Below are positions 274-54,512 of a stretch of DNA of 64,000 nucleotides, in pieces. Where the stretch lies: assembly GCA_012295275.1 (NCBI GenBank), contig CM022675.1:12958001-13022000 (forward strand), written 5' to 3'. Every line of letters begins with the position of its first letter. Position 1 is the stretch's first letter. Made by a program: the position numbers and the translations under genes. The notes below the pieces were generated by a model. The model was not told where the DNA came from. It saw only the letters and a list, made by a program, of their open reading frames with translations, and ran no database searches. This stretch comes from Chrysomallon squamiferum (taxonomy: Eukaryota; Animalia; Mollusca).

Positions 274-1579
<1,306 letters not shown>

Positions 1580-1740
1580 AAACGAGAAACTCCGACTGTG
1601 AAAAGAACCGTGTTGAAGAAATAGACGCTGAAAGTGTGATAGAGAAAGCAGACGTGGAACGTACGAATAAAGCAACGAGTGGACACAAAAAGGAAGTCGT
1701 GTTAAAAGCTGGACATTCTACGGATTCAAAATCTAAAACA

Positions 1741-2526
1741 AACACATCAAATATCAAATCAGAAGCAAACACACCAAGTATCAAATCAGAAAGAAACACA
1801 TCAAATATCAAATCAGAAAGAAACACACCAAGTATCAGATCAGAAAGAAACACACCAAGTATCAGATCAGAAAGAAACACACCAAGTATCAAATCAGAAA
1901 GAAACACATCAAATATCAAATCAGAAAGAAACACACCAAGTATAAAATCAGAAAGAAACACACCAAGTATAAAATCAGAAAGAAACACACCAAGTATCAA
2001 ATCCGAAGCAAACACACCAAGTATAAAATCAGAAAGAAACACACCAAGTACCAAATCAGAGAGGAACACACCAAGTATCAAATCAGAAAGAAACACATCA
2101 AATATCAAATCAGAAGCAAACACACCAAGTATCAAATCAGAAAGAAACACACCAAGTATCAAATCAGAAAGAAACACATCAAATATCAAATCAGAAAGAA
2201 ACACACCAAGTATCAGATCAGAAGCAAACACACCAAGTATCAAATCAGAAAGAAACACACCAAGTATCAAATCAGAAAGAAACACACCAAGTATCAGATC
2301 GGAAACAAACACGCCAGATATCAAATCAGAAAGAAACACACCAAGTATCAAATCAGAAAGAAACACACCAAGTATCAAATCAGAAGCAAACACACCAAGT
2401 ATCAAATCAAAAAGAAACACACCAAGTATCAAATCAGAGAGGAACACACCAAGTATCAAATCAGAAAGAAACACACCAAGTATCAAATCAGAGAGGAACA
2501 CACCAGATATCAAATCAGAAAGAAAC
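1741..2526 (+). repeat. 27-nt coding minisatellite, ~29 units (aacacaccaagtatcaaatcagaaaga)
   Basis: Direct reading; variants NTPSIKSER, NTSNIKSER, NTPSIKSEA, NTPDIKSER, with no stops or indels seen. Confidence 0.97.
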
Positions 2527-3311
2527 ATGGATAGCTCAAAATCGGAAACCAAACTGGATGAACCGTTTGTGGGTACAGAAACACTCAGACAAGGTTCAGC
2601 TACAGGCGAGGACAGAAACGATCAAACAAGCTGCCGAAGAGACTCACGTTACGTCACGAACGACAACTCCAGAGAAGTAACCAAAACGAATTTGCTTTGA
2701 ATCAGATGGAAAGTGAATTGTAAAATTCAAAAAATAGGACAGTGTGAAGAATGCTGTGTGCGTGTTCATGCATGCATGTATGTATGTATGTATGTATGTA
2801 TGTATGTATGTATGTATGTATGTATGTATGTATATGTATGTATACATGTATGTGTGTGTGTGTGTGATGTTTTCTCTTTTTATGCATTGACCTATGTTTT
2901 TAATATTATGTCTTAAAGTATATTCTTTGTAGTTATTATTTAATATACCTCCATTTCGCTACTGTAATTTATTGCAGTAAATATCTTACTTAAATTTATT
3001 CTATTATCTCTTCTTTGTTTTCTACAAAATATCGTGTTTTAATTCTTGTGTGATTTCGGTTTTTAGTCGAAAAATAATTGTATCATATAGATACAGTTTA
3101 TTTGCACTCAACGTCATGGACGTGACGAACAACGTTGATGCATTAACATCAATACATATTAAAACATCTTGTGTGAAAGTGTATTATCACTATATTTACT
3201 ATAGAACTCAGTTATCAAATTATATTATATTATTATTAGCATGTCACAGATCACTAAACAACGTATTTCATTTACTTTCAGTGATCTGAAAAGGTGTTGA
3301 TGTTTGCAAAA

Positions 3312-4060: not shown

Positions 4061-4499
4061 TTTATTTATTTATTTATTTATTTATTTTACTTTTTTTTAT
4101 TATTATTTATATATACTTTTATGAACATGTAGATAATAAAAAAAGAAGCAGAATAATAGCATTAACTGTATTGATAGTCCTGTCGACTGAAGGTGTTTAT
4201 AAATTTATAAATAAATCTTCTATAAAATGTGAATATTTTAACACGATCTTTGATACATCAGTTGTACAGTATTAGTTATAAAAGTGTTGAATAAGAAACA
4301 ACCCAGTGAGTGTATTAACAACAAGAAAACAATAGTACGTGGAAAGAGAACAAGAACAAGCAGAACAAAAACAGAAGAAACAAAAAACGAATAATAGAGA
4401 TAATAATACAGAAAACAACATGAAGAAAAATAAAAAGAAGTAAACCAATAATAATAAGAAGAAATCTAAAAAAAAAAGCAATATGGCGATCTTACCAGT

Positions 4500-4781
4500 T
4501 CAACAAAGATGCATACACGCTATGTCTGCATACCAACAGTATCTTCGTAAACCTCTTCGAAATGCACGATTCAACTTTCTTTCACAAAACCATTTCCTTC
4601 TATCCCAACATCTGTAACCTTTTGAAATATTTATATATATATTTAATAACTAGACAGAGTTTTGAATATTTACACTTTAACTACAAGTTACTGAATATTT
4701 AGATTTTTAACTCCATATTATGAAATATTTCTATATTTTTAGTAGAATTATTTTTTCAAAATCCATGCTTCTAATATATAT

Positions 4782-4855
<74 letters not shown>

Positions 4856-7800
4856 AATAATATACAACAACAACAACAACAACAATAATAATAATAATAA
4901 TAATAATAATAATCTCCTCACCTGAACACACACCACATGAATATCTACATCTTCGCCTTATTCTCCTTCTGCTGCACATTCGATCCCAGATATAAGAAAT
5001 TTCCCCCAAAATCTCGTCAACACAACCTGAAAGAAAAATGCTTCAATAAATCAGTCAGTCCACATTGACACTTCACTAAACTTTACCTTTTATAAGTCAT
5101 AAGTTTTCATTTACTCCGATGATCTGAGAGAGAAAATCCGCTGTAGACAGTATGTTCTACTCCTACCAACTAGTAGCAAGAAGTCTTTCATTTGCTTCTT
5201 CCCACAAAGAGAAAGCAAAATATATGAGCCTTCAGCACACAGATTGAGACAGAAATGCAATATCTAATTACAGTTTTTCAAATCTACGAATAACGTTTTA
5301 TTCAACCCATTGTTAAGTTAATGACCAACAACGTAACAGCTGAAAACGGACGCCACGTTTTCAGATGGAAGTTTTGGGCAGCATTTAATATTTTCGTCTT
5401 CTTCATTTTGAAAATAATATAAACGAAAATAATGTTCACTGGATTATATTATTAGCATTTAAAAAACTAACTGTCTGCAGCATGTAGCAGTCTTGTCACG
5501 TTTAGTATTTAAAAATTAAAAACATACCACTGATCAGCTTTTGTTTATTGCCCTTTAGTATAGTATATCGGTGTCTTATTCAGAATGAGTAATTTCACTT
5601 GATGATCTACACTGACAGAAACGTGATACATAACTTACTGTTTTCACACATTGGTCCGTAGAAGTTTGTTTTGCATTCACACTGACAAGTTTCTGTGTTC
5701 AAAGTTCCACCATTCTTACACTGCACATTACAGGCAACTGTGGAGGAAATGGATATGTAGGTAAATGGATGGATGAACGGATGGATTGATGGCTATATGA
5801 TGCTTTAATGGATATACAGACATATAACTGCATATACGTTTATAGCAACATACACATACAAACATACACACATACATGCATATATACCAACATATATACC
5901 CAGCCGTGCACACACATATACATGTAAATAGAAACATACACATAGACCCACATACATACTTATATTTACGTGTGTAGACGTACACAGAGACACAAACATA
6001 CAGATACATATATGCACTCACTCCCTATAAAAGATAGTTACTCTGTTTACAATGTCGGTACATATGTATCTAATAATTATTTTGTATGTACTTGTAGTTG
6101 TTGGTGTTGTAGGTGTTGCTGTAGTTGTCGATGTTGTAGTTTTTGGAGTTGTAGTTGTAGTTGTTGATGTAGTTGTCGATGTTGTTGTTTTTGGAGTTGT
6201 AGTTGTCGTTGTTGATGTTGTAGTTGTCGGCGTAGTTGTAGTTGTAGTTGTCGGCGTAGTTGTAGTTGTAGTTGTCGGCGTAGTTGTAGTTGTTGTCGTT
6301 GTAGTTGTCCGCGTTGTAGTTGTGTTTGGCGTTGTAGTTGGTGGCTCGTCAGTTATTAGCGGTCCACTTATTGGCGGTGGAGTTATATTCGGGTCAGGTG
6401 TTGCAGATGTTGATGAAGATGACAGCGCTGAAATAGAAATAAATAGATTATCAGTCAAACATAGAAAAGAAATATTTACATTACCGAGATTTGATTCAAG
6501 ATCACGCTAAGTATTTTTAAGGATGGTGTGCAGTCTACACCACTCTAAGAAGTTCTGGTATTATTTTAATCAATAACTTACTACAGCAATAACATTACTA
6601 CAGCAATAACTTACTACAATCTCCGAAACAGGCACAAGCGCATCTTGTTCCATTTAAGTCTGTAACGTAACGCTTGTGGCCATCCTCCATACAGGTGACA
6701 GAGCACGTATCTGAAATATTTTATACACAAATATCTTAAGTCTTTACTGCTTTCTGTGTCTAAACCTACAACCACCACGTTGTTTTAACTACTCTAAGAT
6801 ACATACACATAACAGAAGATATGTAAGACATTTGTTTAAATTTGTACAATGTCTGTCTCTTAGTGCGCGTGTTTCTGAGAAAGAGAATGAAAACAAATAT
6901 TTCACTTCGTGTTCAACAGCCATAGAAAAGTTTAAGAACGTTGGAGATAAAAAGATCATGAGCAATAAATAAATATATATATATATATATATATTCTGTT
7001 TAAATATCTAAGCGAGTTCTTTATCAAATGTTTAGCAAAAACAATGGAATATATATATATATATATATACACAAACATACATACACACAGACAGACATAT
7101 ATTCCATTGTTTTTGATAAACATTTGATAGGGAACTCGTTTGGGATATTTAAACAGAATGGGAGAAAGGGTGGCATAGACAGAGTGAGATATAGAGACAG
7201 GCAAAGAGACAGAGAGACAGACAGACCTGTGAATATAAGGGCACAATCTGTGGTGCTCTATTTAATACTACACATGAAAATTCAATCATATATGTAAACT
7301 CTATATGTGTACGATAAAAACTACCTGCTTTCATAAAAAACACAAAAAGAAAACCGAGAAAAAACCACAAAAAAACCAACAACAATAGTAATAAAAAATA
7401 AATAAAATAGTAAAAAAATAAAATAAAACAAAATAATGAAAAAATAATTTAAAAACCGTAATACAGAAGAGTATAAATATACATTCTTAAATGTTGGAAG
7501 GCACAGTTACAAATGCCGGGTTACTTACCTGGACAGACCTTACATAATTTAGGACAGTACTGTGATGCGTAATTAAAGCCTCTATTGCAGTCATTCTTAC
7601 TGCACGTATAGTCCGAAACATCGGCAGGACAGTTCACTTGAAAACAGAATAATAATATATAGTTATTAGTCACTAATATTTGTCATGAAACAGTTGTTGA
7701 GCTCAGCAACTTTCATAACGAGCCAAATTAGTCTACCTTCGAAGTTCCAACATCTTTCTTAAAAACACACAGTGATATGACTTCAAACATTTAACGCATT

Positions 7801-9390
7801 AAGTACGTTACGCTCAAGTAACTATTCCTGTTTTGTTAGAGTCGAGGACACGTAAGTTTTGATTAACTGTTGATTTACAATATTCCTCAACTTGAAACTA
7901 TCTTAAACACAAAAGTAACAATTAATTACAAGTATACTGAAAGCAGTTGTGGTATTTGTTCTAATTACAAAGGTCTTGTATTACTAAATAAAACCACAAG
8001 TATAAAAAACATAGTAAGACTGGTCCAATGCCCATAGCAGTAAGCAAAACTATTAATACACTGCATCTGCGAGATTGCAACGTATTCCAATGAAACTTGT
8101 AATAGGTGACCTGTATTTTCACTCTTTATTCTTATCACTACATCAACATATTACAATTATTCTACTTACATGTTTCGCACCGACTGCTGGTAAAATATTT
8201 TGGACATGTACAAGAACAATCCGTAACATTCAACTTTCCTCCATTGAAACAGACCTTACCATAACAATCTGTAAAAAAAAACAGACTGAGTAAACGCTTT
8301 TATTTGTCACTGAAACAGTTTGAAAAGTCAGTATTATATTTTGTCTAGTAAATAAGTCATTTATCTGAATTATTGTAATGTTTCATTCATCAGCCTATTT
8401 TTGTCTGAAGTATCGTATTTCAGTATTTGTTTTTTAGTATAGGTTTTTCACTATTCAGATGATTTTTGATTGAATTATAGTGGTTCGTTCCTTTAGTAAT
8501 TTTTCTACTTAATAATACGGTGTATCAGTAGTCAAATGTTCCATTTAAAGTTTGATAATGCTTCATTAGTAAGACAATTTCTGTCTGAAGTATAATGCTT
8601 TAGTAGTCAAGTATTTATTCGATTGAAGAAATATAGTATATCATTGGTCAGATATTGATATTTGAAAGTATAGTGTTTCACTGGTCAGTATTCGTATCTC
8701 AAAGAGTACAGTTGTTTTAGCCACGAAGCAGTTATTTATCTAATTTGTAGTGTTTCACTAATCAAATACATTTAATTTGAAGCATTATTGTGTTTCACTA
8801 ATGAAGATAATTTTATCTGAAGTATCATTTCATTAATCCAACACTAGTTTTCTTATTACTGTAGGATAGTATTTGACAAGTGAAACAATTTCTATTTGAA
8901 GTATAACAATTTACTAGTTATGTACTTTTTATTTGAAGTATAACAATTTACTAGTTATGTATCTTTTATTTGAAGTATGGCAATTTACTAGTTATGTATT
9001 TTTTATTTGAAGTATAACAATTTACTAGTTATGTACTTTTTACTAGTTATGTATTTTTTATTTGAAGTATGGTTTTACTAGTTAAATTTGAAGTATAACA
9101 AACTAGTTATGTATTTTTTATTTTAGTCTTTGAAGTATAGATTGACTAGAAAGTAAGTATTTACCACAGGTGTTGGTGTAGACTCTGTTTCTCCTGAGAC
9201 ACGTGTCACACTTCATACCTGTAGCCGGGGCACAGTAAGGCTTAATAACAGTGATCTGTCTGAAGAAATGTGAAAACAAATAACTAAATAGTAAATACAG
9301 TTACTTACTTACATTATACATAACAAATACTGTAAGTGTATCAGAGGAGTATGTCCTATGAACTCTTTAAACTGTGTATCTTTATCACAG

Positions 9391-9422
<32 letters not shown>

Positions 9423-11635
9423 CCATTCATGCAGATACAGACGCACACACAGAGAGACACACTTATATAGATGCATATATGTATCTATTCTTACATACAA
9501 ACAAACACACGTCTACAGAGTGGGAGAGAATGGCTGCTATGAGTTCAAGTCTCGTCAGCGGCATCTGACTTTTGTGAGTTGTTTTATGGCGATTGGTGTG
9601 TTATTTTTGTTTTATGGTTTGAAAACTTACTGGTGCGCGTAATTACAAGCAACAATGTATCTGTATCTCCCGCGGATTCCATTGTCGCCACAGTCGACCA
9701 AAGCACAGCCCACTCTCGAAGATCTGTGCAGAATCATCTACAGTGTGTGAGATGAATGAATGAATGAATAGAAAAAAAAAATACATAAATAAATACATAA
9801 ATAAATAATAAAATGGGATTCGAAATGCTAATGTCAGTGAAAAAATTACATATTAGTTTTTAAACGATAGAAATCTTACTGAAACTGTAAAATAGAAATT
9901 TGAAAGTTAGTAACTGAATCTGTAGAAACTTAAGAAACTATTACGTCGGTCATTTTGAAATATCATGTAGTAGATTTGAAATCCTACACAACTAATTTTA
10001 AATACTGTATTAACAATATTCAATGGACATCTTTTGATTAATTTAGTGATTTGATTTTGTCAAGTCTTTAAACAATGACGCTATTTCTGAAACTGTTTGT
10101 CTGTATCTAAGTCTGACAGTATTAAAAATGCAGGTAATGTCTGCGGACAAAGTTAATATCTAGTAAACTGACCTGCGTGTAGTGACCAACTTTCCCAAAA
10201 TCGTTATTTGCACCGAATACGTAATTTATATTCTCTTTTTCCCAATTTTTGATGGCAGGAATTATGTCCTGAGTTCGACCACTAGTGACATATATATTTT
10301 GACCAGTTGATACCCCAGGTAGACCTATCAGTTAGAAACATACAAAAACGTATAATGTATATTCACTTCCGTTTATACATTCAACTTTACACATTTACGT
10401 ATATTTATACATTCATATTTACATGTTAGTTACGTCTGTACATTCATATTTATATATTTGTATATATTCTTACATTCAGTTTCATACTTTTAATTACCTG
10501 TGTACATTTATGTTTAAATTCATATTTAAATATTTACGTACCATTTTTTATTGTCATATTTGCATCCATTAGTAAGACTGTAAGTTCATACTTACACGAT
10601 AGTTTACTTTATCTTAGAGATTAAAATATTTTATTAAAGAAAAATTTACTGAAAGCTCTTCTGTGTTTTATCAATATTTACATATGTACATGCCATTTTT
10701 TGTTCTGTTCATGTTTACATCTATTCCTTAGAGTTAACTAATATTTGCATGATAGTTTATTCTGTCTCAACAGTAGAATTATTTTATCAAAGAAAACTCA
10801 CTGAAAGCTCTTCTGTTTCCCTTCTCCTCGTGTTTAAACACACACTGAGCAGCGTGTTTTTTGGCAATGAAAGCAAGCTCATCATCCCACACCTGCAACG
10901 TAGTTTTAAAATGCTCACTGATCAGTAAGTACCGTTACTATATCATCCATCATTAGTTAGTCAATGATTTTAATAACGGATACTGTCACTGTGGTCAAAC
11001 AGTTGTCTTAATCATTTGAAAATAAAATGTTTCGGCTTTTTGACATTTATGAATCTTTTTTTTTCTTTGTCCTGGCTTTTCAGTTAAAGATTTAGAGGAG
11101 GGAAATTAATAATGATTACAATACTGTTTAATGTTTACAGGACAAAACAATTTTTACGATACCATAGTCTCCATGTCACCAGCTGGAGGATGGACTTCGT
11201 TTCTCACACGATTGTGTTCAGCAACGGCAGCGTCTTTCTGCTGCTGTGTTAGTGGAATTTCAGTTCCAACATCAGTTAGACAGGCCGTGTGATTGGGACC
11301 AAAGAATTCATACTTGCACTGAAAAGGAATAACGTGATTTCTTCTTTTACAGTACTTCTGTTAACTACTACTGATACCACAACAACAACAGCAACTACTA
11401 CTACTACTACTACTACTACAGACATTATGACTATTACTATCTTTGCTACTAGGACTACGACTAGTACCACTACTATTACTACAACGTTTACTAGTACAAT
11501 AACAGCTATTACTACTAGTATTAAAAATACTCCCAAAACTACTAAGGTGATGATAATTACTTCTAATATTACTCCTATAGCTTTTGATAATAATAGTAAC
11601 TGCATATTTTTCTGTCATCACCACCATCATCAACA

Positions 11636-11666
<31 letters not shown>

Positions 11667-12639
11667 ATTTATTTATTTATTAAATACTGAATTAACTAAG
11701 TCTAAGGCATCAAAATGTATTACTAACTTGCCCATTAATTAAACTTTCACATTACCTATATATATATATCTATTTCAAATGAAGTAGTTTTTATTATATG
11801 AGACCTTAAAAGCAAAGGTGAACGAACAAACGTTATGCGTACATGAAAATGCAGCTAATATTAAATTCTGTGACCTTTGTGATCATTTTAAATACAGTCA
11901 ATATATTTATATACAAACTTACATTGTCTCGCTTTGTGATGGAATCTGTAAGTAATGATAATAATAATAATAATAATAATAATACGTATTTATAATACCG
12001 TGTTAATAATAGGTTTAATATATGTAGTATGATAATAGTAATAATTCGTATATTTATATTATTATAATGAAAAACAATATGACTCGTACTTGTTATATGA
12101 TAATCGTAATATGTATGACACACATAATATGATAACAGCAATTCATGTAAGACTGGTAACACGACAGCAAAGCGGACAATATTTGCAGTGTGATAATAAC
12201 ACAAATCATAGACGGATATGATAGCATGTATATGTCTTACGTTTATGGCAATAATACATTTTTAGTACTGGCAATTAAAATCTGAAATTGTTTTCGGAGT
12301 GACCGAGTTGCTGGCAGTTTAGCTCTATGAAGGATCAACGGTTTAGAACATTTTTCATTAAATGAAAATCAAAAATCCCTAATTTAATTATTTAATTTTT
12401 TACTTATCTTTTCGTTTAAGAAAAGCCTATTTTTTTTTTTCTCGCTCGAAAAAATTATTATCTATCGAATGTATTTGATCATTTTGTTTTTCATAAACAA
12501 ATACATTAGCCATAAAGGTGATGGAATTAGAAAATCTGCGAGGAAAAGCTTTAATAAAAAACAACTTACCTGAATCTTCAGCTAAGCAGAATGAAAACTG
12601 CAAGAAGAAACACAGAACTACAGTTCTGAAACAACCCAT
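4500..12639 (-). CDS. Secreted CAP (SCP/CRISP) protein, Conus Tex31/Mr30-like, with EGF, ShK, mucin and Arg-rich Cys modules; paralog 1 (~551 aa)
   Basis: Exons: 12570-12639 (MGCFRTVVLCFFLQFSFCLAEDS signal); 11923-11945 (DSITKRDN); 11163-11318 (CKYEFFGPNHTACLTD...EHNRVRNEVHPPAGDMETM); 10802-10892 (VWDDELAFIAKKHAAQCVFKH); 10173-10324 (GQNIY...WEKE...GHYTQ); 9631-9737 (SSRVGCALVDC...CNY); 9165-9259 (hinge); 8170-8268 (EGF, CFNGG..CSCTC); 7529-7636 (ShK, CPKLCKVC); 6615-6710 (EGF-like); 6092-6427 (Thr-rich); 5639-5737 (EGF, CKNGG); 4922-5026; 4500-4618 (TGA). All introns are GT-AG, phases agree, total 1656 nt. Confidence 0.93.
8330..9150. repeat. Degenerate ~38-nt tandem repeat (tttatctgaagtat...tttcactagt) filling intron 7
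   Basis: Near-exact 38-nt units at ~8893-9040; related degenerate arrays at ~20920-21550 and ~33600-34420. Confidence 0.7.
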
Positions 12640-12709: not shown

Positions 12710-13614
12710 GGAATTAAACAGGCCATTTTTAATAAATTCTTTGTTTCATGTGTCTTCGGTTTTAACGCCAGCGCTTTCGAAATTCAATTTTTTTTCTTCA
12801 ATATATCTTTTTATTTCTTAACACTAATAACGATATATAGATATATATATATAAAAGAATGTTAGAGGAATAAATAAATTGACTTAAATTTGAATTTTTA
12901 GTTTCCAAAACACAAATATTTTCATATTATGGCCTTTCGGCCTACGCTTAAAAAGATAGGATCTACTACAGAGAAAGAATTGGGAATGGCTTGAAAATAA
13001 TAACATATGTGACATAACAACATCTTGCGAAATTGAGAAAAAAATAGATGAAAGAAATGAACTAAAACAAGAAAAAAAAACAAAAAAACAACAAAAAAAA
13101 CACAAAAGAAAGAAAAAAGAAGAAACAAAAGAAATAAAAAGACCCACCCCACCACTAAATTAACACCACTAAAAAAAATCAATTTGATGTTGTTTGTGCA
13201 AATGAAAAATGTTTCAAAATTTGTTACGAAACAAACTGGAGTACCATCATTTCCATGGAAAATATATTTTTTTTACCTTTTTTAATCGATGAAACAGAGC
13301 TACACGGAGTCATCACGTGCGAAGCCTGGGGCTGTGCGTTCGTGCACTGAGTACTGTCGTACGTGAGTATGTGCGTTCAACAGCTGGCAGCAGTTAACAA
13401 AGAACGTGGAGATTTTCCCTTTCTGATTGCGACGAACTGTGATGTGTACAGCAAGATTAGAGACGTCATAAATAAATGAAAACACACAGATTGTTTTGTG
13501 TGCATACAATTAAATTTAACATCACCTTGTTCTTTAGAAACTTACTACAACTTCAACACAGTTTCTATTAATGATGCATTTGATTGATTTATTTATTTAT
13601 TTATTTATTTATTT

Positions 13615-15440: not shown

Positions 15441-15739
15441 ATGTGATTGCTATGATAAAACATATCATTTAAAATACGATAGCCTACCAATACTGTATAC
15501 AGTATATCCCATTATCTTCCAACGTAAATGGTTGATTTGATTCTTCTCATATGTTGTAGTGACCACTGCGTATGGATTTATTATTAATGGGAATACATAT
15601 TGATATTAAAATGTTATTACTGCAGTAATTTGTCAACGCTAGAACTGAAACAAATTCAGACCTGTATTTTTGTTTTTGTGATTACTGAAAGATTTTAATG
15701 TTATTAATATATATGGCTTGAAGTCAGTGATTAGCGGAC

Positions 15740-16260
15740 CAGGGAACAAGTAACAACAAATCCAAGACGTTGACGATCGACCCCGTTCAGATGATCGTGT
15801 GGCAACAAGATGTGTGCAGAATCGATTCATCCGTAACCAAGTTGTAACAAACCGAGATAAAACTGCAAATTAAATCGTTGAAAACCTTTATCAGTCTACT
15901 GGGGTCCGGGTTACAGGTCAGATGATTATAAGTCGTCTTCATGTTCCCAAATTTCATGTTCCCTTTTTTCATGCTCGACGTCTCAGACTTGAACTGCACG
16001 CCAGCGTCATCATGCGATTTCAGGGCAGATTTGGAGGTAGATCGATGGCGTTGGGTGGTGTTACCACATCTGACACAACGCCCCTCCATATAATGCAAGG
16101 AAAGATCAGTAGGCAGGACTACCAGGACAACATATTGAAAACATTTTTCGTCCTGTTTGCTAAGCGTAAGCGTCTCAGGATAACAAATGTCAGTGCTCAG
16201 CGGAGTGGAACAGATTCACTAAGATGACCTTTGAAAGACTTGCACACAGTATTCCTCATC
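15740..16260 (+). mobile_element. Decayed Tc1/mariner-family transposase remnant
   Basis: DVDDRPRS..R..T..VQNRFIRNQVVTNRDKTA resembles Tc1 DRPRSGRPRVTT..DR.I. RFGGRSMALGGVTTSDTTPLHIMQGKISRQDYQDNIL resembles Tc1 FGGGSVMVWGGI....G.L..I.G......Y..IL. The fragment is frameshifted and no TIRs were identified. Confidence 0.75.
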
Positions 16261-16528: not shown

Positions 16529-17228
16529 CACAGACACAAATGACAAATAAAAAAACCTCTGCAGTATAGTCAAAGACTATTAAATTTTATTGCACAGTTT
16601 CATTTGACATTGTGTACAGTCAAAAGATTATTAAAGAATTTTCAAATTTAGTAAATCACGTTTTACACGGTTAATGTCTTCTGTGTCGTTACTTCCTGTA
16701 AGTCTGAAAACAAAAATTTATATATATTAATTACATTTTGTCTGTTTGGCTGTTTATTTACTTATTTATCTTTTTAGTTATGTATTTTTTAAGTATTATT
16801 TTTTTCACATTATTTATTTATTTATTTTACTTTTTTATTATTGTTTATATATACTTTTATGGACATGCAAATAGAAAAAAGGAGAATAACAGCATAGACT
16901 GTGTTGATAATCCTGTCGACTGAAGGTGTTTATACATTTATAAATAAATCTTCTATAAAACGTGAATATTTTACCACGATCTTTGTTACATCAGTTGTAC
17001 AGTATTAGTTATAAAAGTGTTGAATAAGAAACAGCCCAGTGAGTGTATTAACAACAAGAAAACAATAGAACGTGGAAAGAGAACAAGAACAAGCAGAACA
17101 AAAACAGAAGAAACAAAAAACGAATAACAGAGATAATAATACACAAAACAACATCGAGAAGAAGAAAAAGAAGAAAACCAATAATAATAATAAGAAATCT
17201 AAAAAAACAATATGGCGATCTTACCAGT

Positions 17229-25300
<8,072 letters not shown>

Positions 25301-29133: not shown

Positions 29134-29542
29134 ATATATATATATATATAGACAGATAGTTAGGTGTAGATATTCAGATACTTTTTTGACATGCGAAGAA
29201 AAAACTTAGAGAACCACAACTACAGCAATATGTATTACTAATATACGACAGTATAATATTATCGACTGAACGTTATGTGTAATGTGAAGGGTTTATGCTG
29301 AATTTTGTTACATCAGTCTTGCAGCACTAGGTATAACAGTAAAAAGCTGAATGAGAAACAATTCAATGACTGTGATAAAGTAGGACAACAAAGTGGAACA
29401 AAAACAAAAACTAAAAGAAACCAGAAAAAAAGAAGAAATAACAACAATAGCAATGACGACAACAACATCAAAAAGAATAAAATGAAAAAAGACAAAAACA
29501 AGAAGAGTAAATTTAAGAAAACAATATGGCGATCGTACCAGT

Positions 29543-32500
29543 TCAACAAAGATTCATACACGCATTGTCTGCATTCCAACAAAATCTTCGCAAACCTCTT
29601 CGGAATGAACGGTTCATCTTTCTGTTACAAAACCTATCATTTCTATCCCTGCATCCGTTACCTTTTGAAATATTTATATATTTTAAAAAAAACACCTCAG
29701 AAATGTCAGTATTTCTTATTATATTTGGTACAGTTGTAACTTCAAGTTAGTAAAATAATTATGTTTCATACTACGTATTCCACAGTTCTAACTCTATGTT
29801 ACTTTTCACACTTTTTATTTCAAGTTACCGAATGTTTATATTTTTACTCTACGTTACTGAATATTTATATATATTTGGTCTTTTCTAAGTCCATGTTTCT
29901 ACTATATATATATATCGTGCAATCCGTTAAATAATAATAATAATAATGAACATTTGCTCACCTGAACACAGACCACATGAAAGTCTACATCTTCGACTTA
30001 CTCGCGGTCTGCTGCACATTCGATCCCAGACATTCAAAACTTCATCCCAAATCTCGTCAACACAACCTGAAAGAAAACGTTTAAATAAATCAGTCAGGCC
30101 ACATTGACACTTCACTAAACTTTACCTTTTATAAGTCATAAGTTTTCATTTACTGCGATGATTTGAGAGAGAAAATCCTCTGTAGCCATTATGTTATAAT
30201 CCTATCAATTAGCAGCAGTTATTTTGGCCTTGCTATTAATGGAAAGCCAAAAGCAAAATAGAAAGATTTCCTAATCTACGAATAACGTTTTCTTCAAATC
30301 CATCATTACGTGTTTTTTTTTATTGGTCTGGTCCGCTATTGACATACAACGTACGAGCAGAAAAGGGAGTCCATGTTTTCGGATGGAAATTGTGTGCACT
30401 ATTTAATATTTTCGCCTAGTACTTCAGTTTGAAAATAATACTAAAGAAAATAAACATTAACATTTAACAAACTAACTGTCTGCAGCATGTATCAGTCTTG
30501 TCATATGTCCATTCAGTTTAATATTTAAATATTTAAAACAGACGATTGATCAACTTTTGTTTATTGCCCTGTTATAGACCCGTGTCTTATTCAGAATGAG
30601 TAATTTCACTTGATGATCTACACTGACAGAAACGTAATACAGAACTTACTGTTTTCACACATTGGTCCGTAGAAGTTTGTTCTGCATTCGCACTGGCAAG
30701 TTTCTGTGTTCAAAGTTCCACCATTCAGACACTGCAAGTTACAGGCAGCTGTGGAGGAAATGGACATTTAGATAAATGGATGGATGAATGAACGGATGGA
30801 TTGACAGATGATGTGCTATTGGATATACTGACGACACATACCTGCACTTACATTTATAGCAATGTACATATACACACACGCACGCATCTATATCTGGGTG
30901 AGTGTTTATATGTAGGTAAATATATATATATATAATTACTGAGATATATACACATACATATGTAAATAGAAACACGCACACACATACGTCACACACGCAC
31001 ACACATGTCACAGACGCATACATCAGTTATCGCTTTACAAGGTTAGTACTGAACAACAACAACAACAACAAAAAGAAACTTCTGATTTGTACAATATAGT
31101 ATTTGTTGTTCTAAAGAATTCTATGTGTAATGAAATTTTTATTTAGGTCGTTTTAACCTTGACCTGTATGATCAGGATTCATTAATGTTATCGATTACTG
31201 TTGCACTGTTAATCGTCAGCACATCGTGAAACTCAATTTGCACGTGCATGCATGATTCGATCGACATGTCCCGTGTCGTGTTCAGTCTTGATTGGGCAAT
31301 GACACTGAGTTTCTGTTAACCTACGGCCATGAATTTTGGGACCAAACAATGCATATATAACAGTCATTGGGCCTTGGTTTGTCTTCATCGAGTCATGTTC
31401 AAGCAAAGTTAACGGACGTGTCTTGTTTTGTTCATTAATAATTCAGCTAATAATGTTTTTTTTTTATCTTACTTGTAGTTGTTGGCGTTGTTGTTGTCGT
31501 TGTCGTATCCGGCGTTGTAGTTGTTGGCGTTGTAGTTGGCGTTGTAGTTGGCGTAGTTGTTGGAGTTGTAGTTGGCGTTGTAGTCGGCGTTGTAGTCGGC
31601 GTAGTTGTTGGCGTTGTAGTTGGCGTAGTTGTTGGCGTTGTGGTTGGCGTAGTTGTTGGAGTTGTAGTTGGCGTTGTAGTTGGCGTAGTTGTTGGCGTTG
31701 TAGTTGGCGTAGTTGTTGGCGTTGTAGTCGGCGTTGTAGTTGGCGTAGTTGTTGGCGTTGTAGTTGGCGTTGTAGTTGGCGTACTTGTTGGCGTTGTAGT
31801 TGGCGTAGTTGTTGGCGTTGTAGTTGGCGTTGTAGTTGGCGTAGTTGTCGGTGTTGTAGTTGCTGGTGTAGTTGTTGTCGAATCTAACTGGCCTGAAGTG
31901 GAAATACATCATCAAGCAAACACAGAAAAGAAACGCTTACATTACTGAGATTTAATTCAAACTGCAGCTAAGTATGTTTCACTCGTCGTCTAAGAATGTT
32001 ATGCAGTCTACACCACTATAAGAACTTCTAGTATTCTCTGAATCAGAGAAAACAGTAACTTACTGCAGTCGTCTCCGGTATAAGGTGCGACACAGGCACA
32101 AGCACATCTAGTTCCACTTGCGTCTGTGACGTAATGCCTGTAGCCATCATTCTGACAGTTGAGAGGGCAGGTATCTGAAATATGTTATAAAGAAATGCGT
32201 AAGTGTTTGTTTCTCTCTGAGTCAGTGTCTTTTATCTGTTATGTATGTTTAGATCTTCAACAACAAAACTGTTTTAAACAGACATACATACAATACGATA
32301 AATATGACATTTATTTAGATTTGAGTAATATCTGTCTCTTAGTGCGCGTTTTTGAGAAACAGAAGGAATAAGCAAATGATTCACTTTACGATCAACATCC
32401 ATAGAAACATATAAGAACGACGGAAAGAAGAAATAAAGGTCTGAGAGAGACAAAGATAAACTGGGAGACAGGGAGTCACAGAGAGAGAGACAGACAAAGA

Positions 32501-34263
32501 TAAACTGGGAGACAGGGCGTCACAGAGAGAGAGAGACAGACAGTAAAGGTAATATCTATGACAATGGTTTAAAAAAAAAAGTATGATCATTCATATTATA
32601 AGATACAATAAAACTCCTTTATTAAAAATTATTCCTTGATAATGAAAAATATAAATATGCCTACATATATTTCCTTAATGCTGGAAGCTATAAGCACAAA
32701 TACCTGGTTACTTACCTGGACACACCTTACAGCTCGTAGGACAGTACTGTGATGCGTAATAGAAACCATTGTCACACTTATCCGCTTCACAGTTCGAGTC
32801 CAACGGATTAGCAGGACAGGTCACTTGAAAGTAGAATAGTAATGTACAGTTATTAGTCACTATGCTTTACTATAGCTTCACTGTAGTTTAACCTCAATCA
32901 TCTTTCATTATATGGCGACATAATAATGTTAGGTACCAGATACAGAAGAAGAGAAAAGAAAAAACTACATGATATGATCAGCTACCGTACACAAAAGAAG
33001 GGCAGGAAACAAAACAAAAGAACAACAAAAAATCACAGTAATGGTTGTCAGAGATACACATCTGATCAAAGAGTATATGTCATAAACCAGTTGGTGAATT
33101 ATAGCACAAATTAGTCTCCTTCTGAACTTCAATCCGCATCTTTTTTTCAAAAATTCAAAGTGATAAGACTTTAAACATTTAATACATTAAGTGTCTCATA
33201 TTCCAGTAGTTATTCGTGTTTTTTGTTAGCGTAGAGGGGATACGTAACAACTCGTAAATGTTGATTTACATCTGTATTCTTCTAGTTAAATAAGGACTTT
33301 AGAACATTTGTTTAACCCCTACTTTTAGTAATATAATTATGGTCACTGTTCAGTTAATGACTAAAGTTTTGTTCTTATTGCTAGATACACCCGTTATTTC
33401 ACTTACCTATTTCACACTTGTCTCCTGTAAATATTTGATCGCCAAAGTTATCTTTGCAGGTACACGTGCAAACACCAATATTTAGTTCTGCTGAATTGTA
33501 GCACACCAAACCATAACATTCTGAAAAAAGAAACATAGATTCGTGTAAACTCGTGAATTAGTCACTGAAATCTTTGTAGTAAACAAATTATTTCATTAAT
33601 CAGAAACTCTGATAGACTAACCAAACCAATTTTAAAAAACAAATAATAATAATAATAAACTGTTTCATTACTCGTTCAGATTTATCTGAAATACTATTGT
33701 GTTTCACTGTTCAGGCAATTGTATTATGAAATACAGTGTTTCACTTGTCAAGCAGATTTTACCTCAAGTAATCATGTTTCATTATTCAGGCAATTTCTAT
33801 CTTGAATAGTGTTGTTTCACTATTCAGACAATTTCATCTTAAGTATTATTGTTTCATTATTCAGACAATTTTTATCTTACGTATTGTTGTTTCACTATTC
33901 AGACAATTTTACTCAAATTATGTAGTCGTTCAGTAGTCAATCAGTTTTTAATCTAAATTATAGTGTTTCAGTAATCATCTATTTGTTAACTGAAATATTT
34001 CACTATTCTGATAATTTTTATCAGAATCATAATTTCACCATTCAACTATTCTTTTTCTGCTTAAATAACACACTATTCCAGTAATCAAGTATTTTATTTC
34101 TAGCTTGATAATATTTCATTAATCAGGCAATTGCTATCTGAAGTATAGTGTTCAATTCTTCTCTATCTGGAATACTGATGTATACTGTTGTATTTTACCA
34201 GTCAAGATGTTTCATCTTAAGCAATTTACATTTTATTTGAATAGAGGTGTCACTAGTCAAGTA

Positions 34264-34322
<59 letters not shown>

Positions 34323-36202
34323 TCTATTTATTTATTTATTTAGTTTTCTATTATTTTTGTCTCAAGCAAGTTCTGCTTAACTAAAATGCATTTTATATGA
34401 AGAACAGCTTCACTAGATGTTAGCTATTTACCACAGGTCTTGGGGTAGTCCACGCTGTTTGTGCCACACGTGTCACACGTCATGCCTGTAGACGGGGCAC
34501 AGTAAGGCTGGTTATATTCTGAATTCAGCTGTCTGAAAAAAAGTGAAAACAAGTAACTAAATAGTAATAGTCATTTCATTACGTTATACGCTGATAATGT
34601 TATTATTGTATCCATGGGGTATGTCAAAAATAAACAAGTGCTCTTATTAATGCAATATTTTTTTTTAGTTTTTTTTGTTTTAGTTGTGTAAAACTTACTG
34701 GTTAGCGTAATTACAAGTAACAATGTATCTGTATGCCCCTTCGATTCCATTGACGCCACAGTCGACCAAAGCACAGCCCACACTCGAAGATCTGTGCAGA
34801 ATCATCTACAGAGTAGATGATAAAACAAAAAATAATACTTATCTAAATAAAAATATCACACTGTACTTTAAAACTGTTACGAAACCAATTCAAAATGTCC
34901 TATTGTCATTTAAAACTGCTTTCTAATTATTTCAAAATATCTCGTAGCCGCTTAAAGCTCCAACATGGCTAATTCAAAATGTCACACTGTTGTTTCAAAC
35001 TGCCATACTATAGATTATTCCTCTGAAATCCTGCATACGTATTGCATTAACAATATTTAATAGATAAAATTTAATTAATTTAGTGATTAGAATTTGACAA
35101 ATCTCTTACGTCAAGTCATTAAACAATGGCAGCATTTCTGAACTCACCTGCGTGTAGTGACCAACTTTCGAAAAATCGTTGCTTCCACCGTATGTGAAAT
35201 CCTTCTTCTCATCTTCCCAGCCTAAGATGGCAGGAATGATGTCACTAACCGTTCCACTCGAGATGTATATATTCTGACCAATCTTTACATCAGGTAGACC
35301 TGGACGTTAGAGAAGTAACCTTTATACATCCATATCTGTGTTTTCATACCTTTATACATATATTCATGTTTACATTCCTACGTATTTTTGTACATTAGCA
35401 TTTACACCTTTACTATATTCATGTTTACAGTTTTGATATTTCTGAAGTAAGATTTAGATTTTTATATATTTATACATTCAACTTCACAACTTTATATATT
35501 TATGTACATTTATGTAATTATATTCATATTTATATATTTACATAATATATATTTTATAGTCATATCTGCATGCATTAGTAAAACTGTAAGTTCATATTTA
35601 CATGATAGTATACTTTATCTTAAAAGTAAAATTATTTTGTCAAAGAAAACTTACTGAAAGCTCTTCTGTTGATGCCCTCATCGTGTTCAAACAGACACCG
35701 AGCAGCGTGTTTTTTGGCAATGAAAGCAAGCTCGTCATCCCAATACTGAAACAGATTTTTAAAATGCTCACTGATCAGTAAGTACCGTTATTTAATCATC
35801 CATCATTACTTAGTCAATGATTTTTGGTAACGGATGATGTCATTGTGGTCAAGCAGTTGTTTTAATCATTTGAAAATAAAGTTTCTGTTTTAGCATTATG
35901 AAAACAGTTTTTGAATAAATGATAATCAAGCCTTCTCGGAAACGTTTCTGAATTCGTCAGAAGCGATCAAATACATGAACAGGCACACAGAAGCAGAATA
36001 TTTAGAAAATTCTGAGATATGTACGTGTTTAAAGTACTTGTGTAATAAGCTTCGTTTTCCTATCATTTCTGTCTCCATTACATGCATGTTGCAAACATAT
36101 ATTTAACAAAATTTTGGTCAACGTGAATAATTCTCACAAAAAAAAACAAACAACTTAACTAATGTCTTCATTAGATATACAAAAACAGACCGTTTAAAAA
36201 TC

Positions 36203-36235
<33 letters not shown>

Positions 36236-36515
36236 GACGTTAGATAAAATATTTAAAACAGCTCTTTGCGCTAAATTATAACCAACGAAAAACTGTGACT
36301 GAATGACATTCATCTTTGTTGGACAGTTAGGTGGGACTTAAAAGACAACTGGGCGCGTGTAGAGTCACCAATTATGAACTTTCAGTAACTGTTCGGATGT
36401 CTTAAGACACAACAGTTTGAGATACCAGTATTTGCATCATCTGACATTTATAAAGTCTTTTTATCCACATTTATCATTTAATGATTTAGAGGACGAAATA
36501 TTATAATACTGATTG

Positions 36516-36564
<49 letters not shown>

Positions 36565-37407
36565 TATATTTATTATACCATTGTCTGCATGTCAGCAGCT
36601 GCAGGATCGACTTCGCTTCTCACACGATTGTGTTCAGCAACAGCAGCGTCTTTCTGCTGCTCTGTTAATGGGATTTCAGTTCCAACATCAACTTTACACG
36701 CCGTGTGAGTGGAGCTAAAAAATTCATACTTGCACTGAAAAGAAATAACGTGATTTGTTCTTTTACATTGCCTCTTTCAATTACTACTACTACCACTACT
36801 GTAACTACTACTACTACCATTACAATTACTGCTCTATTACTACAAATACAGTAACTACTACAGTTATTACTATTACTACTACCACTGCAACTACAACGTT
36901 CTCTAACAGTATTACTTCTAAAAGAACGAGTGCTGCTGGAATTACTGCTAGTATTGCTACTATCTCTACTAATACTACAGGGACTGTTACTACCAGAATT
37001 CAAACTATTACTAGAACTACTACTAACACTATGTTGTTTACGACATTTACTATAACAATAACAATAACAAAAATAATAATAATCATAATAATAATAATAA
37101 CAACAACAACGTCAATAATAATAATAATTTATTTATTCACTCATTTATTCATTCATCCATGTTTTATATTGTACTATTTATTTATTTATTTATTTATTTA
37201 TGAATTAACTGAAAGGTATCAAGATTCAATTTTCTTTCATTATCTCTTATGAAAATGAAGCAAAACAAAAATAATTATTCAAATACAAACAACAAAACAT
37301 AAACTTACCGTGTCCCGTTTTGTGATGGACTCTGAAAAAAAAAAAAAAAAAAAAAAAATACATAAGAAATAGTCACATAAACCAAATAATAAAAATAATA
37401 ATAATAA

Positions 37408-37439
<32 letters not shown>

Positions 37440-38255
37440 TAACATTTGTATAATATTTGTGATATTAAGATGATAATGCACATAACTTTAATAATAATTA
37501 TGCTAGTTATATTCATACGTAGTTTACCTCTGATATAATACTTATAGCATACGTAACGTGGTAAGTATAACAGTACATATAGTACTTGCAACATGATGAT
37601 TATAATAATACATAAATTACTTTTGTAAATTACATATAATGTGATATTAGAAATACGTATGCTATTTATAATAATAATCCTTATTATGCTTGCATTATGA
37701 TAGTAATGCAAATTACGATAATATGTATTAATAACAATACTAGTAAAAGTAATTACATCGTTAATATAGTATGCAATATTTACAAAATGATAATTATATT
37801 TTCTAGTAATATTATGTATCAAATATATATATAAAATTAAACTTCTGCTTGTAATATATATTTTTTAATTATATGTATATTCGATATAATAGTTTTAATG
37901 AATGTCACTAATGAAGAGCCACTACTGTTATTGTGACAAGTTATGAATATGATGTAAACATGTAATTAATTGGAATTCTTTACTTACAATACATGTACTA
38001 TGTATGTCTGTCTAATTCTTTTCCATGGGTTAAAAGAAAAAAGCACAACACACGCGCTTAAATTCATAACCTACCAAATTTTATTTAGTCAGTAAAATGT
38101 TTTATTATTTCAGAAAGCATTTATAATGTTCGTCACAGAAATAAGAAAGTTTGCCATGAAAAAGCTTTAATAAAAAACAACTCACCTGAATCTTCAGCTA
38201 AGCAGAATGAAAACTGCAAGAAGAAACACAGAACTACAGTTCTGAAACAACCCAT
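29543..38255 (-). CDS. Secreted Tex31-like CAP-EGF-ShK-mucin protein, paralog 3 (~591 aa)
   Basis: Exons 38186-38255, 37309-37331, 36579-36734, 35655-35745, 35148-35299, 34699-34805, 34432-34532, 33407-33520, 32716-32823, 32064-32174, 31473-31892, 30650-30748, 29962-30066, 29543-29661. All GT-AG, 1776 nt, in frame. Confidence 0.93.
31480..31860 (-). repeat. 12-nt coding minisatellite encoding (TTTP)n mucin stalk
   Basis: About 30 units of acaactacgcca/actacaacgcca within exon 11 of paralog 3. Confidence 0.95.
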
Positions 38256-42270: not shown

Positions 42271-43718
42271 GATGAATATTATTGGCTGATAATCCAAGAT
42301 GGCGACAATTTTTAAAGGTGGCCTTCAAGTTATTCTCCTGAAGTTGACTTTTAATAATATTTGTATTTGTGTGATTTGCCCGATCTAAGCTACGCTCATC
42401 TACGGAAGATCGGTAGAACCAGCAGAGACTGAGCAGTTACACTGGATCGAGTTTGTGGAACTCAGTCCCAAGTAACACCAGGAAGGCTAAAACAACAACC
42501 AATCATTTAATAAAATAAAACAAAATTCTTATTAAAACAAAAGAAACCAAAACAGAAATAAAAGGTGTTTTTTTTTTTTTTTTGTAATTATAGACAGGGA
42601 AAAAAAAGGGTTATCCCTCCCTATCTAATATTTATACCATTATACCATACTGAATGATGTCAACATATATATATACATGTACAAAAAACAAGAAATTAAC
42701 TTATTATAATGGAAACGAAAATTGGTCACTTTATTTCAGTTAGATTAGTAAAAACTGACCAAGAGTGTTACTTCAAGCAAAACGAAAATAAAATTAAAAT
42801 GTAACTTTTAACAGTGTAGTTAAACTCGTAACTACATTGAATGGTTATTTTCATTTTCTTGTTTTATAATAGATTTGTGAGAAAAGTCATTTACTTAGGG
42901 GGCTATAATGGTATGAATTCTGGATTTTACTTATCTATTATAAACTAGGATTTCAGATTTCAGAGCCTATTGTATTCTCCAGTAAGGCTTAAGATAGATT
43001 TATTTTCTTTATCCATTTTCTTATTTGGGTTTTTACTTTAAAATAAAATAATAAGAAATAAAAATTGAAAAGTAAATTCATTAAATGTCGTGATTAAAAT
43101 AAAAACTACTTAGAATTTCATTTCTTTCACTTTGATTTGTTTCTGTTTTGGACGGATTCCCAATCTCTTCAGAAGGGCAAACCAAATCCTGCGTCAATGC
43201 ACTTCAGAAATTAGTTAACCTTTTTACTCCCCATCTTTTAGAATTGAAAATAAATTTATCATCAGCGTAATGCAGCAGCGTTCAATAACACAATCTGGAT
43301 ATTAATTATACTAATTCTATTCAACGGTTCCTGTCTGAAAATTTCAACTAAAATCTGGTGTTCAAGAATGTCGTTTAGCTATGACTCAGTCTTTCGTTCA
43401 AATTCAGCTTTATTTCAAAATGGATTGATCTCCACTCGATTAATTTAACTGCCAGCTATTCACTCTGAGTCGAATCGATGGTTCAACGAGACAATAACAG
43501 AAAGTATTGTTACTAGAAACATACACTTACATATAGATACAAATACACACACCCTCCTTACAAATGACAAATACGAAAGCCTCTGCAGTATAGTCAAAGA
43601 CTATTAAATTTTATTGCACAGTTTCATTTGGCATTGTATATAATAAAAGTGCGTGAAAGAATTATCAAATTTAGGAAATCAAGTTTTGCACGCGTAATGT
43701 GTTCTTTATCGTTACTTC

Positions 43719-50953
<7,235 letters not shown>

Positions 50954-54440: not shown

Positions 54441-54479
<39 letters not shown>

Positions 54480-54512
<33 letters not shown>

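What the first reader, a model, noticed from the sequence alone, without database searches (positions are those of the whole stretch)
6615..9259. Hypervariable hinge-EGF-ShK-EGF exons inside conserved intron flanks
Seen: the ShK exon reads NCPADVSDYTCSKNDCNRGFNYASQYCPKLCKVCP, SCSDEILSSFCAPDVCKYGFYNAIQYCPATCKVCP and TCPANPLDSNCEADKCDNGFYYASQYCPTSCKVCP in the three copies. The Cys are fixed and the loops replaced. Yet the flanking intron bases in copies 1 and 2 are identical (aaatgccgggttacttacc; cacttgaaaacagaataataatatatagttattagtca). EGF exon 8 varies in length (99/117/114 nt) and exon 10 too (96/111/111). The signal peptide is identical in all three, and exon 12 nearly so. Known: a conserved signal and introns with divergent inter-cysteine loops is the pattern seen in conotoxins and snake toxins under diversifying selection. 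ShK folds can target K+ channels, but many do not.
Basis: partly seen in the sequence, partly recalled or inferred. Interest (0 to 1): 0.7.

Follow-up and report, generated by a model that had tools for sequence, protein, structure and literature searches.

The report
Fast-evolving exon cassette in CAP-ShK genes
In a tandem cluster of three mollusc-type CAP-ShK genes, four small cysteine-rich exons differ far more than the rest of the gene (between two of the copies, two to three times more than the introns beside them), likely through selection plus exon swapping, in a predicted secreted protein that likely recognises changing partners and is probably not a venom toxin.

Summary
Three minus-strand genes encode signal-CAP-hinge-EGF-ShK-EGF-mucin-EGF-ShK-like-cationic proteins; a Gigantopelta aegis protein has the same layout, matching molluscan type II CAP-ShK. 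Copies 1 and 2 show three tiers: 0.015-0.03 substitutions/site outside, 0.14-0.18 in introns 6-10, 0.50 in exons 7-10. So the introns are an older, unhomogenised tract, not conserved, and against copy 3 the exons diverge no more than whole introns. Mean dN/dS is 0.63-0.66, but a site class near 3 appears, and for exons 8-9 neutrality fails at either possible age. Recombination is visible: copy 2 has an inserted hinge exon beside a truncated old one, and shares a 117-nt tract with copy 3. Exons 7-8 of copy 1 showed no allelic difference in 3 of 3 runs that laid; more paralogues lie outside the window. The ShK dyad lysine is absent and the nearest named relatives come from a non-predatory vent snail, so a Kv-blocking venom is unlikely. 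Verdict: diversifying selection plus conversion in a known family; the target is inferred, not shown.

The parts
4497..12639 (-). Copy 1: 14 coding exons, 551 aa, 47 Cys; signal-CAP-hinge-EGF-ShK-EGF-mucin-EGF-ShK-like-cationic Cys module; exon 15 is 3' UTR
17226..25300 (-). Copy 2: 521 aa if the fallback mucin acceptor is used, 47 Cys
29540..38255 (-). Copy 3: 591 aa, 47 Cys
9165..9259 (-). Copy 1 exon 7, CAP hinge (4 Cys)
   Evidence: no allelic difference in 3 runs
8170..8268 (-). Copy 1 exon 8, EGF-like (99 nt)
   Evidence: Cys pattern only, no Pfam EGF hit for this exon
7529..7636 (-). Copy 1 exon 9, ShK-like module, C-x8-C-x4-C-x10-C-x3-C-x2-C
   Evidence: (Pfam ShK 17.7 bits, cut-off 20.9)
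6615..6710 (-). Copy 1 exon 10, EGF-like, 5 codons shorter than in copies 2 and 3
6092..6427 (-). Copy 1 exon 11, Thr/Pro mucin-like stalk; its end is the 3' edge of the divergent tract
6092..9680 (-). Older, unhomogenised tract between copies 1 and 2 (mid exon 6 to end of exon 11), sharp edges
21676..21767 (-). Copy 2 exon 7: divergent hinge cassette (29% aa identity to copy 1) placed in front of the old hinge
21564..21640 (-). Copy 2 remnant of the original hinge exon: 5' part and acceptor missing, 4 Cys and donor intact; likely unspliced
20750..20866 (-). Copy 2 exon 8, EGF-like (117 nt)
19629..19736 (-). Copy 2 exon 9, ShK-like
19178..19288 (-). Copy 2 exon 10, EGF-like (111 nt)
19114..19230 (.). 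Copy 2 / copy 3 conversion tract over the 3' half of exon 10 and the start of intron 10 (2 mismatches in 117 nt)
18775..19020 (-). Copy 2 mucin exon; no AG at the homologous acceptor, nearest in-frame AG at 18991 has a poor pyrimidine tract
34432..34532 (-). Copy 3 exon 7, hinge
   Evidence: same 16 differences seen in contigs of 2 runs
33407..33520 (-). Copy 3 exon 8, EGF-like (114 nt)
32716..32823 (-). Copy 3 exon 9, ShK-like
32064..32174 (-). Copy 3 exon 10, EGF-like (111 nt)

Best explanation
These are tandem paralogues of a molluscan type II CAP-ShK gene in which gene conversion likely keeps most of copies 1 and 2 nearly identical, while the hinge-EGF-ShK-EGF exons diverge, likely through positive selection on the inter-cysteine loops plus occasional exon-sized swaps between paralogues. 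Shown: the domain layout, the three-tier divergence, the two hinge exons in copy 2, the copy 2/3 shared tract, the fixed cysteines. Inferred: all four exons are bounded so that swaps keep the frame (exons 8-13 are phase 1-1), conversions that overwrite them are purged, and each copy keeps its own binding surface. Inferred function: a secreted surface or mucus protein whose CAP domain binds lipid, whose variable modules recognise a changing outside partner, held out on a Thr/Pro stalk and anchored by a cationic C-terminus. My odds for the partner: microbes or parasites at an epithelium 45%, gametes 20%, mantle/shell matrix 15%, prey ion channels 10%, other 10%.
For: Pair-HMM distances 1v2: introns 1-5 0.03, introns 6-10 0.14 [0.14-0.18], introns 11-13 0.015, exons 7-10 0.50 [0.40-0.50]; introns 7-9 trimmed 0.183 +- 0.014. 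Exons 8-9 72/201 nt against 352/1562 in the most divergent intron alignment, Fisher p 7e-5. Only 2 of 28 unchanged degenerate codons differ in exons 8-9; simulations with omega 1 give p at most 0.154 (age 0.18) or 0.305 (age 0.45) against 0.358 observed, and old-age models miss the low synonymous count (P 0.005-0.01). M2a against M1a on exons 7-10: p 0.004 (F3x4), 29-35% of sites at omega about 3. Copies 1 and 2 share 39-44% aa in exons 8-9, no more than either shares with G. aegis (37-61%), but 83-94% in CAP exons. The G. aegis pair repeats the bias: CAP 15/168 changed, exons 7-10 29/144, p 0.005. Conversion: 117-nt copy 2/3 tract; 193 of 205 nt shared around exon 1 by copies 1 and 3 while intron 1 is at 0.75. 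Exon 14 net charge +7 to +8.
Against: Mean omega over exons 7-10 is 0.63-0.66, significantly below 1; M2a is not significant under F1x4 (p 0.06); no single exon has M0 omega significantly above 1. Against copy 3, exons 7-10 equal whole introns. Pooled exons 7-10 of 1v2 have a synonymous clock of 0.42-0.47 that rejects the intron clock (p 0.003-0.008), so part of the excess is older age or import, not acceleration. The CAP exons give a stronger M2a signal (p 0.0002-0.0007), so selection is not confined to exons 7-10. Site tests on three recombining sequences are prone to false positives (own knowledge). In G. aegis exon 8 is conserved (3/38). Relative-rate tests were significant in 1 of 21 comparisons only. 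Nothing here shows expression, tissue or ligand.
Confidence: 0.65

Rival explanations
1. Segment switching without point-mutation acceleration: loops and whole exons are imported by short conversions from older paralogues, using the conserved splice flanks and cysteine codons as homology arms; selection at most keeps them.
For: Inserted hinge cassette with an undecayed remnant (remnant differs from copy 3 at 15 of 72 nt, like copy 1 at 16 of 72). Copy 2/3 tract. Third positions differ in 54% of changed codons in exons 8-9 and 65% in exon 9, more than omega 8 at age 0.18 predicts (P 0.005-0.01). Further paralogues exist outside the window. Pooled synonymous clock older than introns.
Against: Omega 15 also fits those third positions (P 0.16 and 0.05). 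Neutral divergence even at the copy 3 age does not reach the observed distance. No donor was identified.
Confidence: 0.2
2. Neutral older tract: exons 7-10 merely lie in a block that escaped the latest conversion, and the loops are under relaxed constraint.
For: Sharp block edges and flat intron divergence inside the block; mean omega below 1; exon equals intron against copy 3.
Against: Inside the same block exons 8 and 9 of 1v2 are at 0.40 and 0.60 against 0.14-0.18 for their introns, intervals not overlapping; neutral simulations fail; exon synonymous rates elsewhere are at or below intron rates, so exons are not generally hypermutable.
Confidence: 0.08
3. Venom or salivary toxin: the ShK module blocks prey Kv channels and diversifies like a conotoxin.
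For: Gapless alignment to ShK toxin with identical Cys spacing; type II CAP-ShK genes are salivary-specific in Cumia and include Conus Mr30/Tex31 (PMC6409789); same exon-over-intron ratio as conotoxin mature exons, 2.9-fold (10.1101/107672).
Against: The Lys22 column holds N, Y, Y. Closest named homologues with the full layout are from G. aegis, which grazes and then lives on endosymbionts. Oyster type II genes are mantle-specific (PMC6409789).
Confidence: 0.1
4. Copies 1 and 2 are two alleles assembled in tandem, with a balanced, highly polymorphic middle.
For: 97-99% identity outside the tract.
Against: Copy 1 letters and the copy 2-type joint 7917-7965 occur together in 3 of 3 runs that laid; about 2.2 kb of unshared spacer separates the copies; copy 1 exons 7-8 are invariant in those runs.
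Confidence: 0.05

Closest known systems
Molluscan type II CAP-ShK proteins (CreCAP-ShK 4-7 of Cumia reticulata; Conus Mr30/Tex31 clade), PMC6409789
   Same: Signal peptide, CAP domain, then poorly recognisable ShK mixed with EGF-like and unassigned Cys arrays; dyad generally lacking in Cumia ShK.
   Different: Here an internal Thr/Pro stalk and a cationic C-terminal module; no 30-50 aa low-complexity spacer before CAP; that paper is on transcripts and its main text has no hit for positive selection.
Gigantopelta aegis XP_041352054.1 (P0005) and XP_041350891.1 (P0006)
   Same: P0005 has the same module order throughout, 50-58% identity in CAP exons 3, 4, 6; the pair also differs most in hinge and ShK.
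   Different: One extra residue between ShK Cys3 and Cys4; exon 8 conserved within that pair; automatic names only, no function.
Conotoxin and snake PLA2 exon-over-intron divergence; abalone fertilisation genes (10.1101/107672, passages)
   Same: Conserved signal exon, variable exons about 2-3 times as divergent as adjacent non-coding DNA.
   Different: Large mosaic protein, not a processed peptide; holds only for copies 1 v 2; Cys codons vary here (4-8 of 22 differ).
Peak of divergence under gene conversion (red/green opsin exon 5; PMC3924837, passages)
   Same: Paralogues homogenised except where selection keeps differences.
   Different: Here a 3.6-kb block of intermediate age with sharp edges, exon peaks inside it, and at least five family members.
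ASSET segment switching in snake three-finger toxin exons (PMC2474615, abstract)
   Same: Exon segments radically different between conserved frames while intron segments stay alike.
   Different: There inferred from products; here one swap is caught with its remnant still in place.
Vertebrate CRISPs (stecrisp, natrin, triflin)
   Same: CAP fold and hinge followed by an ShK-type module (the latter on the G. aegis stand-in).
   Different: An EGF sits between hinge and ShK, five further modules follow, and the GEN/GES motif reads GQN as in Ves v 5.

Membership tests
CAP superfamily (PF00188) | CAP domain by profile or fold | tested here: met
   Exons 4 and 6 hit PF00188 singly below cut-off (19.5 and 15.7 bits); exon 5 profile hits Ves v 5, natrin, stecrisp, GLIPR1 at E 5e-6 to 4e-3; homologue P0005 scores 55 bits and its model matches CAP structures.
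CAP superfamily (PF00188) | His-Glu-Glu-His tetrad of the central cavity (recalled, not from a call) | tested here: not met
   The Glu of natrin and stecrisp aligns with Gln in all three copies, as in Ves v 5; Gln is nearly invariant among 18 homologues. Not required for membership.
Type II molluscan CAP-ShK | Signal peptide plus one CAP domain | tested here: met
   Hydrophobic exon 1 and CAP exons 3-6; signal peptide judged by eye, no predictor run.
Type II molluscan CAP-ShK | C-terminus of weak ShK plus EGF-like plus other Cys arrays | tested here: met
   ShK hits below cut-off in exons 9 and 13, EGF-type hits in exons 10 and 12, unassigned exon 14.
Type II molluscan CAP-ShK | Placement in the type II clade with Mr30/Tex31 | tested here: inconclusive
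   Top named hits include proteins auto-named Mr30(-like) from Patella, Ostrea, Gigantopelta, but no Cumia or Conus sequence was in my tree.
Type II molluscan CAP-ShK | 30-50 aa low-complexity spacer before CAP (Cumia members) | tested here: not met
   Only about 8 residues (exon 2) lie between signal exon and CAP.
ShK domain (PF01549) | Six Cys with ShK spacing | tested here: met
   Gapless alignment to 1ROO; Pfam 17.7, 11 and 15.9 bits, all under the 20.9 cut-off.
ShK domain (PF01549) | ShK fold and disulfide pairing | tested here: inconclusive
   AlphaFold of exon 9 mean pLDDT 52; ShK region of the P0005 model about 55-68.
Kv-blocking ShK toxins | Lys22-Tyr23 dyad | tested here: not met
   Aligned pairs are N-Y, Y-N, Y-Y; dyad definition from PMC6409789, which notes the dyad is neither necessary nor sufficient.
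Kv-blocking ShK toxins | Channel block; venom or salivary gland expression | not testable with these tools
   Needs electrophysiology and tissue RNA.
Conotoxin-type hypervariable genes | Variable exons more divergent than adjacent introns | tested here: inconclusive
   Met for copies 1 v 2 (0.50 against 0.14-0.18), not met against copy 3.
Conotoxin-type hypervariable genes | dN/dS above 1 in the variable region | tested here: inconclusive
   Mean 0.63-0.66; site class near 3 with p 0.004 or 0.06 by frequency model.

The most novel reading that the evidence does not exclude
A non-venomous snail lineage runs a cassette-exchange system for a CAP-ShK recognition protein: symmetric Cys-module exons are traded among tandem paralogues through conserved splice flanks and then tuned by selection, giving each copy its own microbe-binding head on a shared chassis. 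ShK/EGF modules would then be variable recognition units of molluscan immunity or symbiosis, and the toxin-like evolution of venom CAP-ShK a pre-adaptation.
Probability: 0.2. Interest if true: 0.75.

Novelty: new member of a known kind. Interest (0 to 1): 0.45.

Why it matters
It shows toxin-like exon acceleration in the CAP-ShK family where venom is unlikely, and points to the hinge and first ShK/EGF modules as the working surface of a family with no characterised molluscan member (PMC6409789). It also catches one exon swap with its remnant in place, a testable case for how 'exons faster than introns' arises. Protein family and evolutionary pattern are each already known.

Tried and rejected
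No whole genome is held, so paralogues outside the window could not be read. Run search: no RNA holder listed; no inference on expression. Contigs were laid on 7460-9290 only, so copy 2's tract and exon 10 were not tested for alleles, exon 9 was thinly covered, and tables were cut; the run of organism B laid 0 records. Word-index protein searches gave 0, 1 and 1 unnamed hits. AlphaFold of the ShK exon was unusable. Atlas search on the gene 4 exon gave only scores under 0.8 and included intron repeat; a second Atlas search did not complete. Intron distances depend on the aligner: 0.10-0.16 against 0.21 (where unrelated introns gave 0.43-0.57); I rely on the pair-HMM and test against the highest value. 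NG86 dS of 0.40-0.57 first suggested old exon islands; counting unchanged codons showed much of it comes from multi-base codon changes. 'Copy 3 is ancestral' (tree) was dropped: relative-rate tests do not support it. CpG hypermutation rejected: CpG counts in exons 8-10 (2-5) are no higher than in exons 3 and 5 (4-6). Mucin exon 11 was left out of all codon tests. Literature: searches found no paper on selection or conversion in molluscan CAP-ShK genes; three vent-snail genome papers have no main-text hit for ShK or venom; their supplements were not examined and may hold expression data. Earlier-finding look-ups gave nothing on this locus.
Full report
1. What is there. The window is AT-rich animal DNA. 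Three genes lie in tandem on the minus strand about 12.6 kb apart, each with 14 coding exons: 551, 521 and 591 aa, 47 Cys each. The order is signal peptide, CAP domain (exons 3-6), hinge (7), EGF-like (8), ShK-like (9), EGF-like (10), Thr/Pro stalk (11), EGF (12), ShK-like with five Cys (13) and a cationic five-Cys module (14, net charge +7 to +8). Exon models rest on splice signals, frame and homology; no RNA was available.

2. Family and organism. A profile of exon 3 found 55 proteins at E up to 0.001. Of 20 looked up by name (19 of these hits plus one TPR hit), the named ones with an organism are molluscan; the two best single-domain hits are Gigantopelta aegis XP_041352054.1 and XP_041350891.1. 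The first has the same module order from end to end. The organism is therefore likely a gastropod related to that vent snail; I did not determine it. The layout matches type II CAP-ShK of Gerdol et al. (PMC6409789; I read passages, section 2.2 and the first part of the Discussion). Exon 9 aligns without gaps to ShK toxin, but the Lys22 column holds N, Y, Y. Folding did not confirm the ShK fold; the model of the G. aegis stand-in matches CAP/CRISP structures through its CAP domain.

3. Divergence has three tiers. Between copies 1 and 2, pair-HMM distances are 0.03 for introns 1-5 and 0.015 for introns 11-13, 0.14 [0.14-0.18] for introns 6-10, and 0.50 [0.40-0.50] for exons 7-10 (introns 7-9 without splice ends 0.183 +- 0.014). 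The block runs from mid exon 6 to the end of exon 11 with sharp edges, and its introns are flat at about 0.17 beyond 20 nt from an exon. So the introns are not conserved: they are an older tract, and the identical flanks are short splice-proximal pieces of a kind seen at other exons too. Against copy 3, exons 7-10 (0.33-0.40) equal introns 6-10 (0.33-0.40).

4. Selection. Averaged over all codons, dN/dS in exons 7-10 is below 1: NG86 0.60-1.21, M0 0.63-0.66. A two-speed picture fits better: M2a puts 29-35% of sites at omega about 3 (p 0.004 with F3x4, 0.06 with F1x4). The cleanest test is exons 8-9 of copies 1 and 2: 72 of 201 nt differ (p 7e-5 against the most divergent intron alignment, 352 of 1562), yet only 2 of 28 unchanged degenerate codons differ. 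Simulated neutral loops reach at most 0.154 at the intron age and 0.305 at the copy 3 age, against 0.358 seen; old-age models with selection predict too many silent changes (P 0.005-0.01); omega 8-15 at the intron age fits. A caveat: unchanged codons cluster at exon ends, where conversion from the flanks could erase silent changes. At protein level copies 1 and 2 share 39-44% in exons 8-9, as low as their identity to another species, but 83-94% in CAP exons; branch lengths to copies 1 and 2 are 0.10 and 0.03 in CAP and 0.71 and 0.78 in exons 7-10, while the stem to G. aegis stays at 0.81-0.86. The G. aegis pair shows the same bias independently (15 of 168 against 29 of 144, p 0.005), in hinge and ShK but not exon 8. 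CAP exons also carry a few fast sites (31 of 501 nt against 61 of 2230 in introns 1-5, p 3e-4).

5. Recombination. Copy 2 has a divergent hinge exon (21676-21767) followed, about 35 nt later, by the 3' part of the old hinge exon, which lacks its acceptor but keeps four Cys and its donor and is as close to copy 3 (15 of 72 nt) as copy 1 is (16 of 72). An undecayed remnant beside a very different replacement points to a recent cassette insertion (inference). Copies 2 and 3 share 117 nt with 2 mismatches across exon 10 and intron 10. Copies 1 and 3 share 193 of 205 nt around exon 1 although intron 1 is at 0.75, so the identical signal peptide may reflect conversion as much as constraint. Pooled exons 7-10 reject the intron clock (p 0.003-0.008), exons 8-9 alone do not (p 0.3-0.6): exons 7 and 10 carry the recombination signal. 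Copy 2 also lacks the usual mucin-exon acceptor and likely makes a shorter or stalkless protein.

6. Alleles or paralogues. Contigs of 4 runs were laid on 7460-9290; 3 laid, 1 (another organism) did not. In those 3, the copy 1 contigs differ only at intron positions, none in exons 7 or 8; one run may be the source sample. A copy 2-type joint occurs in all 3, copy 3's hinge (the same 16 differences) in at least 2, and one further hinge type matches no copy in the window; 7 of 8 loose-end motifs tested are absent from the window. So the variability is between paralogues, and the family has more members. Six near-identical exon 3 products in another assembly suggest similar arrays elsewhere.

7. 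How it likely works. Genetically: duplication, repeated conversion of promoter, signal, CAP and C-terminal parts, and survival and acceleration of differences in four small exons whose phases allow in-frame swapping. This is the peak-of-divergence signature described for opsins (PMC3924837, passages), combined with the exon-over-intron ratio of conotoxins and abalone fertilisation genes (10.1101/107672, passages) and the segment switching proposed for snake toxins (PMC2474615, abstract). Functionally, all inferred: a secreted surface protein with a lipid-binding CAP domain (role as summarised in PMC6409789), a variable binding head, a glycosylated stalk and a cationic anchor. Net charge of hinge, exon 8 and exon 9 shifts from positive in copy 1 to negative in copy 3, as expected for different partners. 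G. aegis grazes and then lives on endosymbionts (PMC7895826, passages) and oyster type II genes are mantle-specific, so a host-microbe role is my first choice and venom a minor one.

8. Verdict. A new member of a known protein family showing a known evolutionary pattern, with an unusually legible record of how it arose. Interest 0.45.

Noticed in passing
window 43700-50950, minus strand: A fourth gene has its own signal peptide and a different Cys-containing N-terminal exon (48279-47966) but ends in the family's stalk remnant, ShK-like exon, Cys exon and 3' UTR exon: an N-terminal domain swap.
   Followed up: partly
window 47740-47970: The end of that exon with its GTGAGT donor is repeated 7 times as a minisatellite, offering alternative donors.
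   Followed up: partly
window 4497, 17226, 29540: The stop codon lies 5 nt before the last intron in all three copies; exon 15 is untranslated but conserved in all four genes.
   Followed up: partly
window 10216-10230 and 9667-9674: Copy 1 differs from copies 2 and 3 in tight clusters of amino-acid-changing bases inside otherwise homogenised CAP exons.
   Followed up: partly
window 54400-64000: About 3.5 copies of a 2.87-kb tandem repeat, each holding an inverted piece (82%) of the CAP genes' upstream region 12853-13034.
   Followed up: no
window 275-2700, plus strand: 3' exons of a TPR-like gene with about 30 copies of a 27-nt repeat in its last exon; the frame around 1560-1580 looks interrupted.
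   Followed up: no
window 15700-16200: Degenerate Tc1/mariner-like transposase remnant in the spacer between copies 1 and 2 (by eye, recalled likeness).
   Followed up: no
window 6580-6618: The exon 10 donor of copy 1 is tandemly duplicated next to the 15-nt shortening of that exon.
   Followed up: partly
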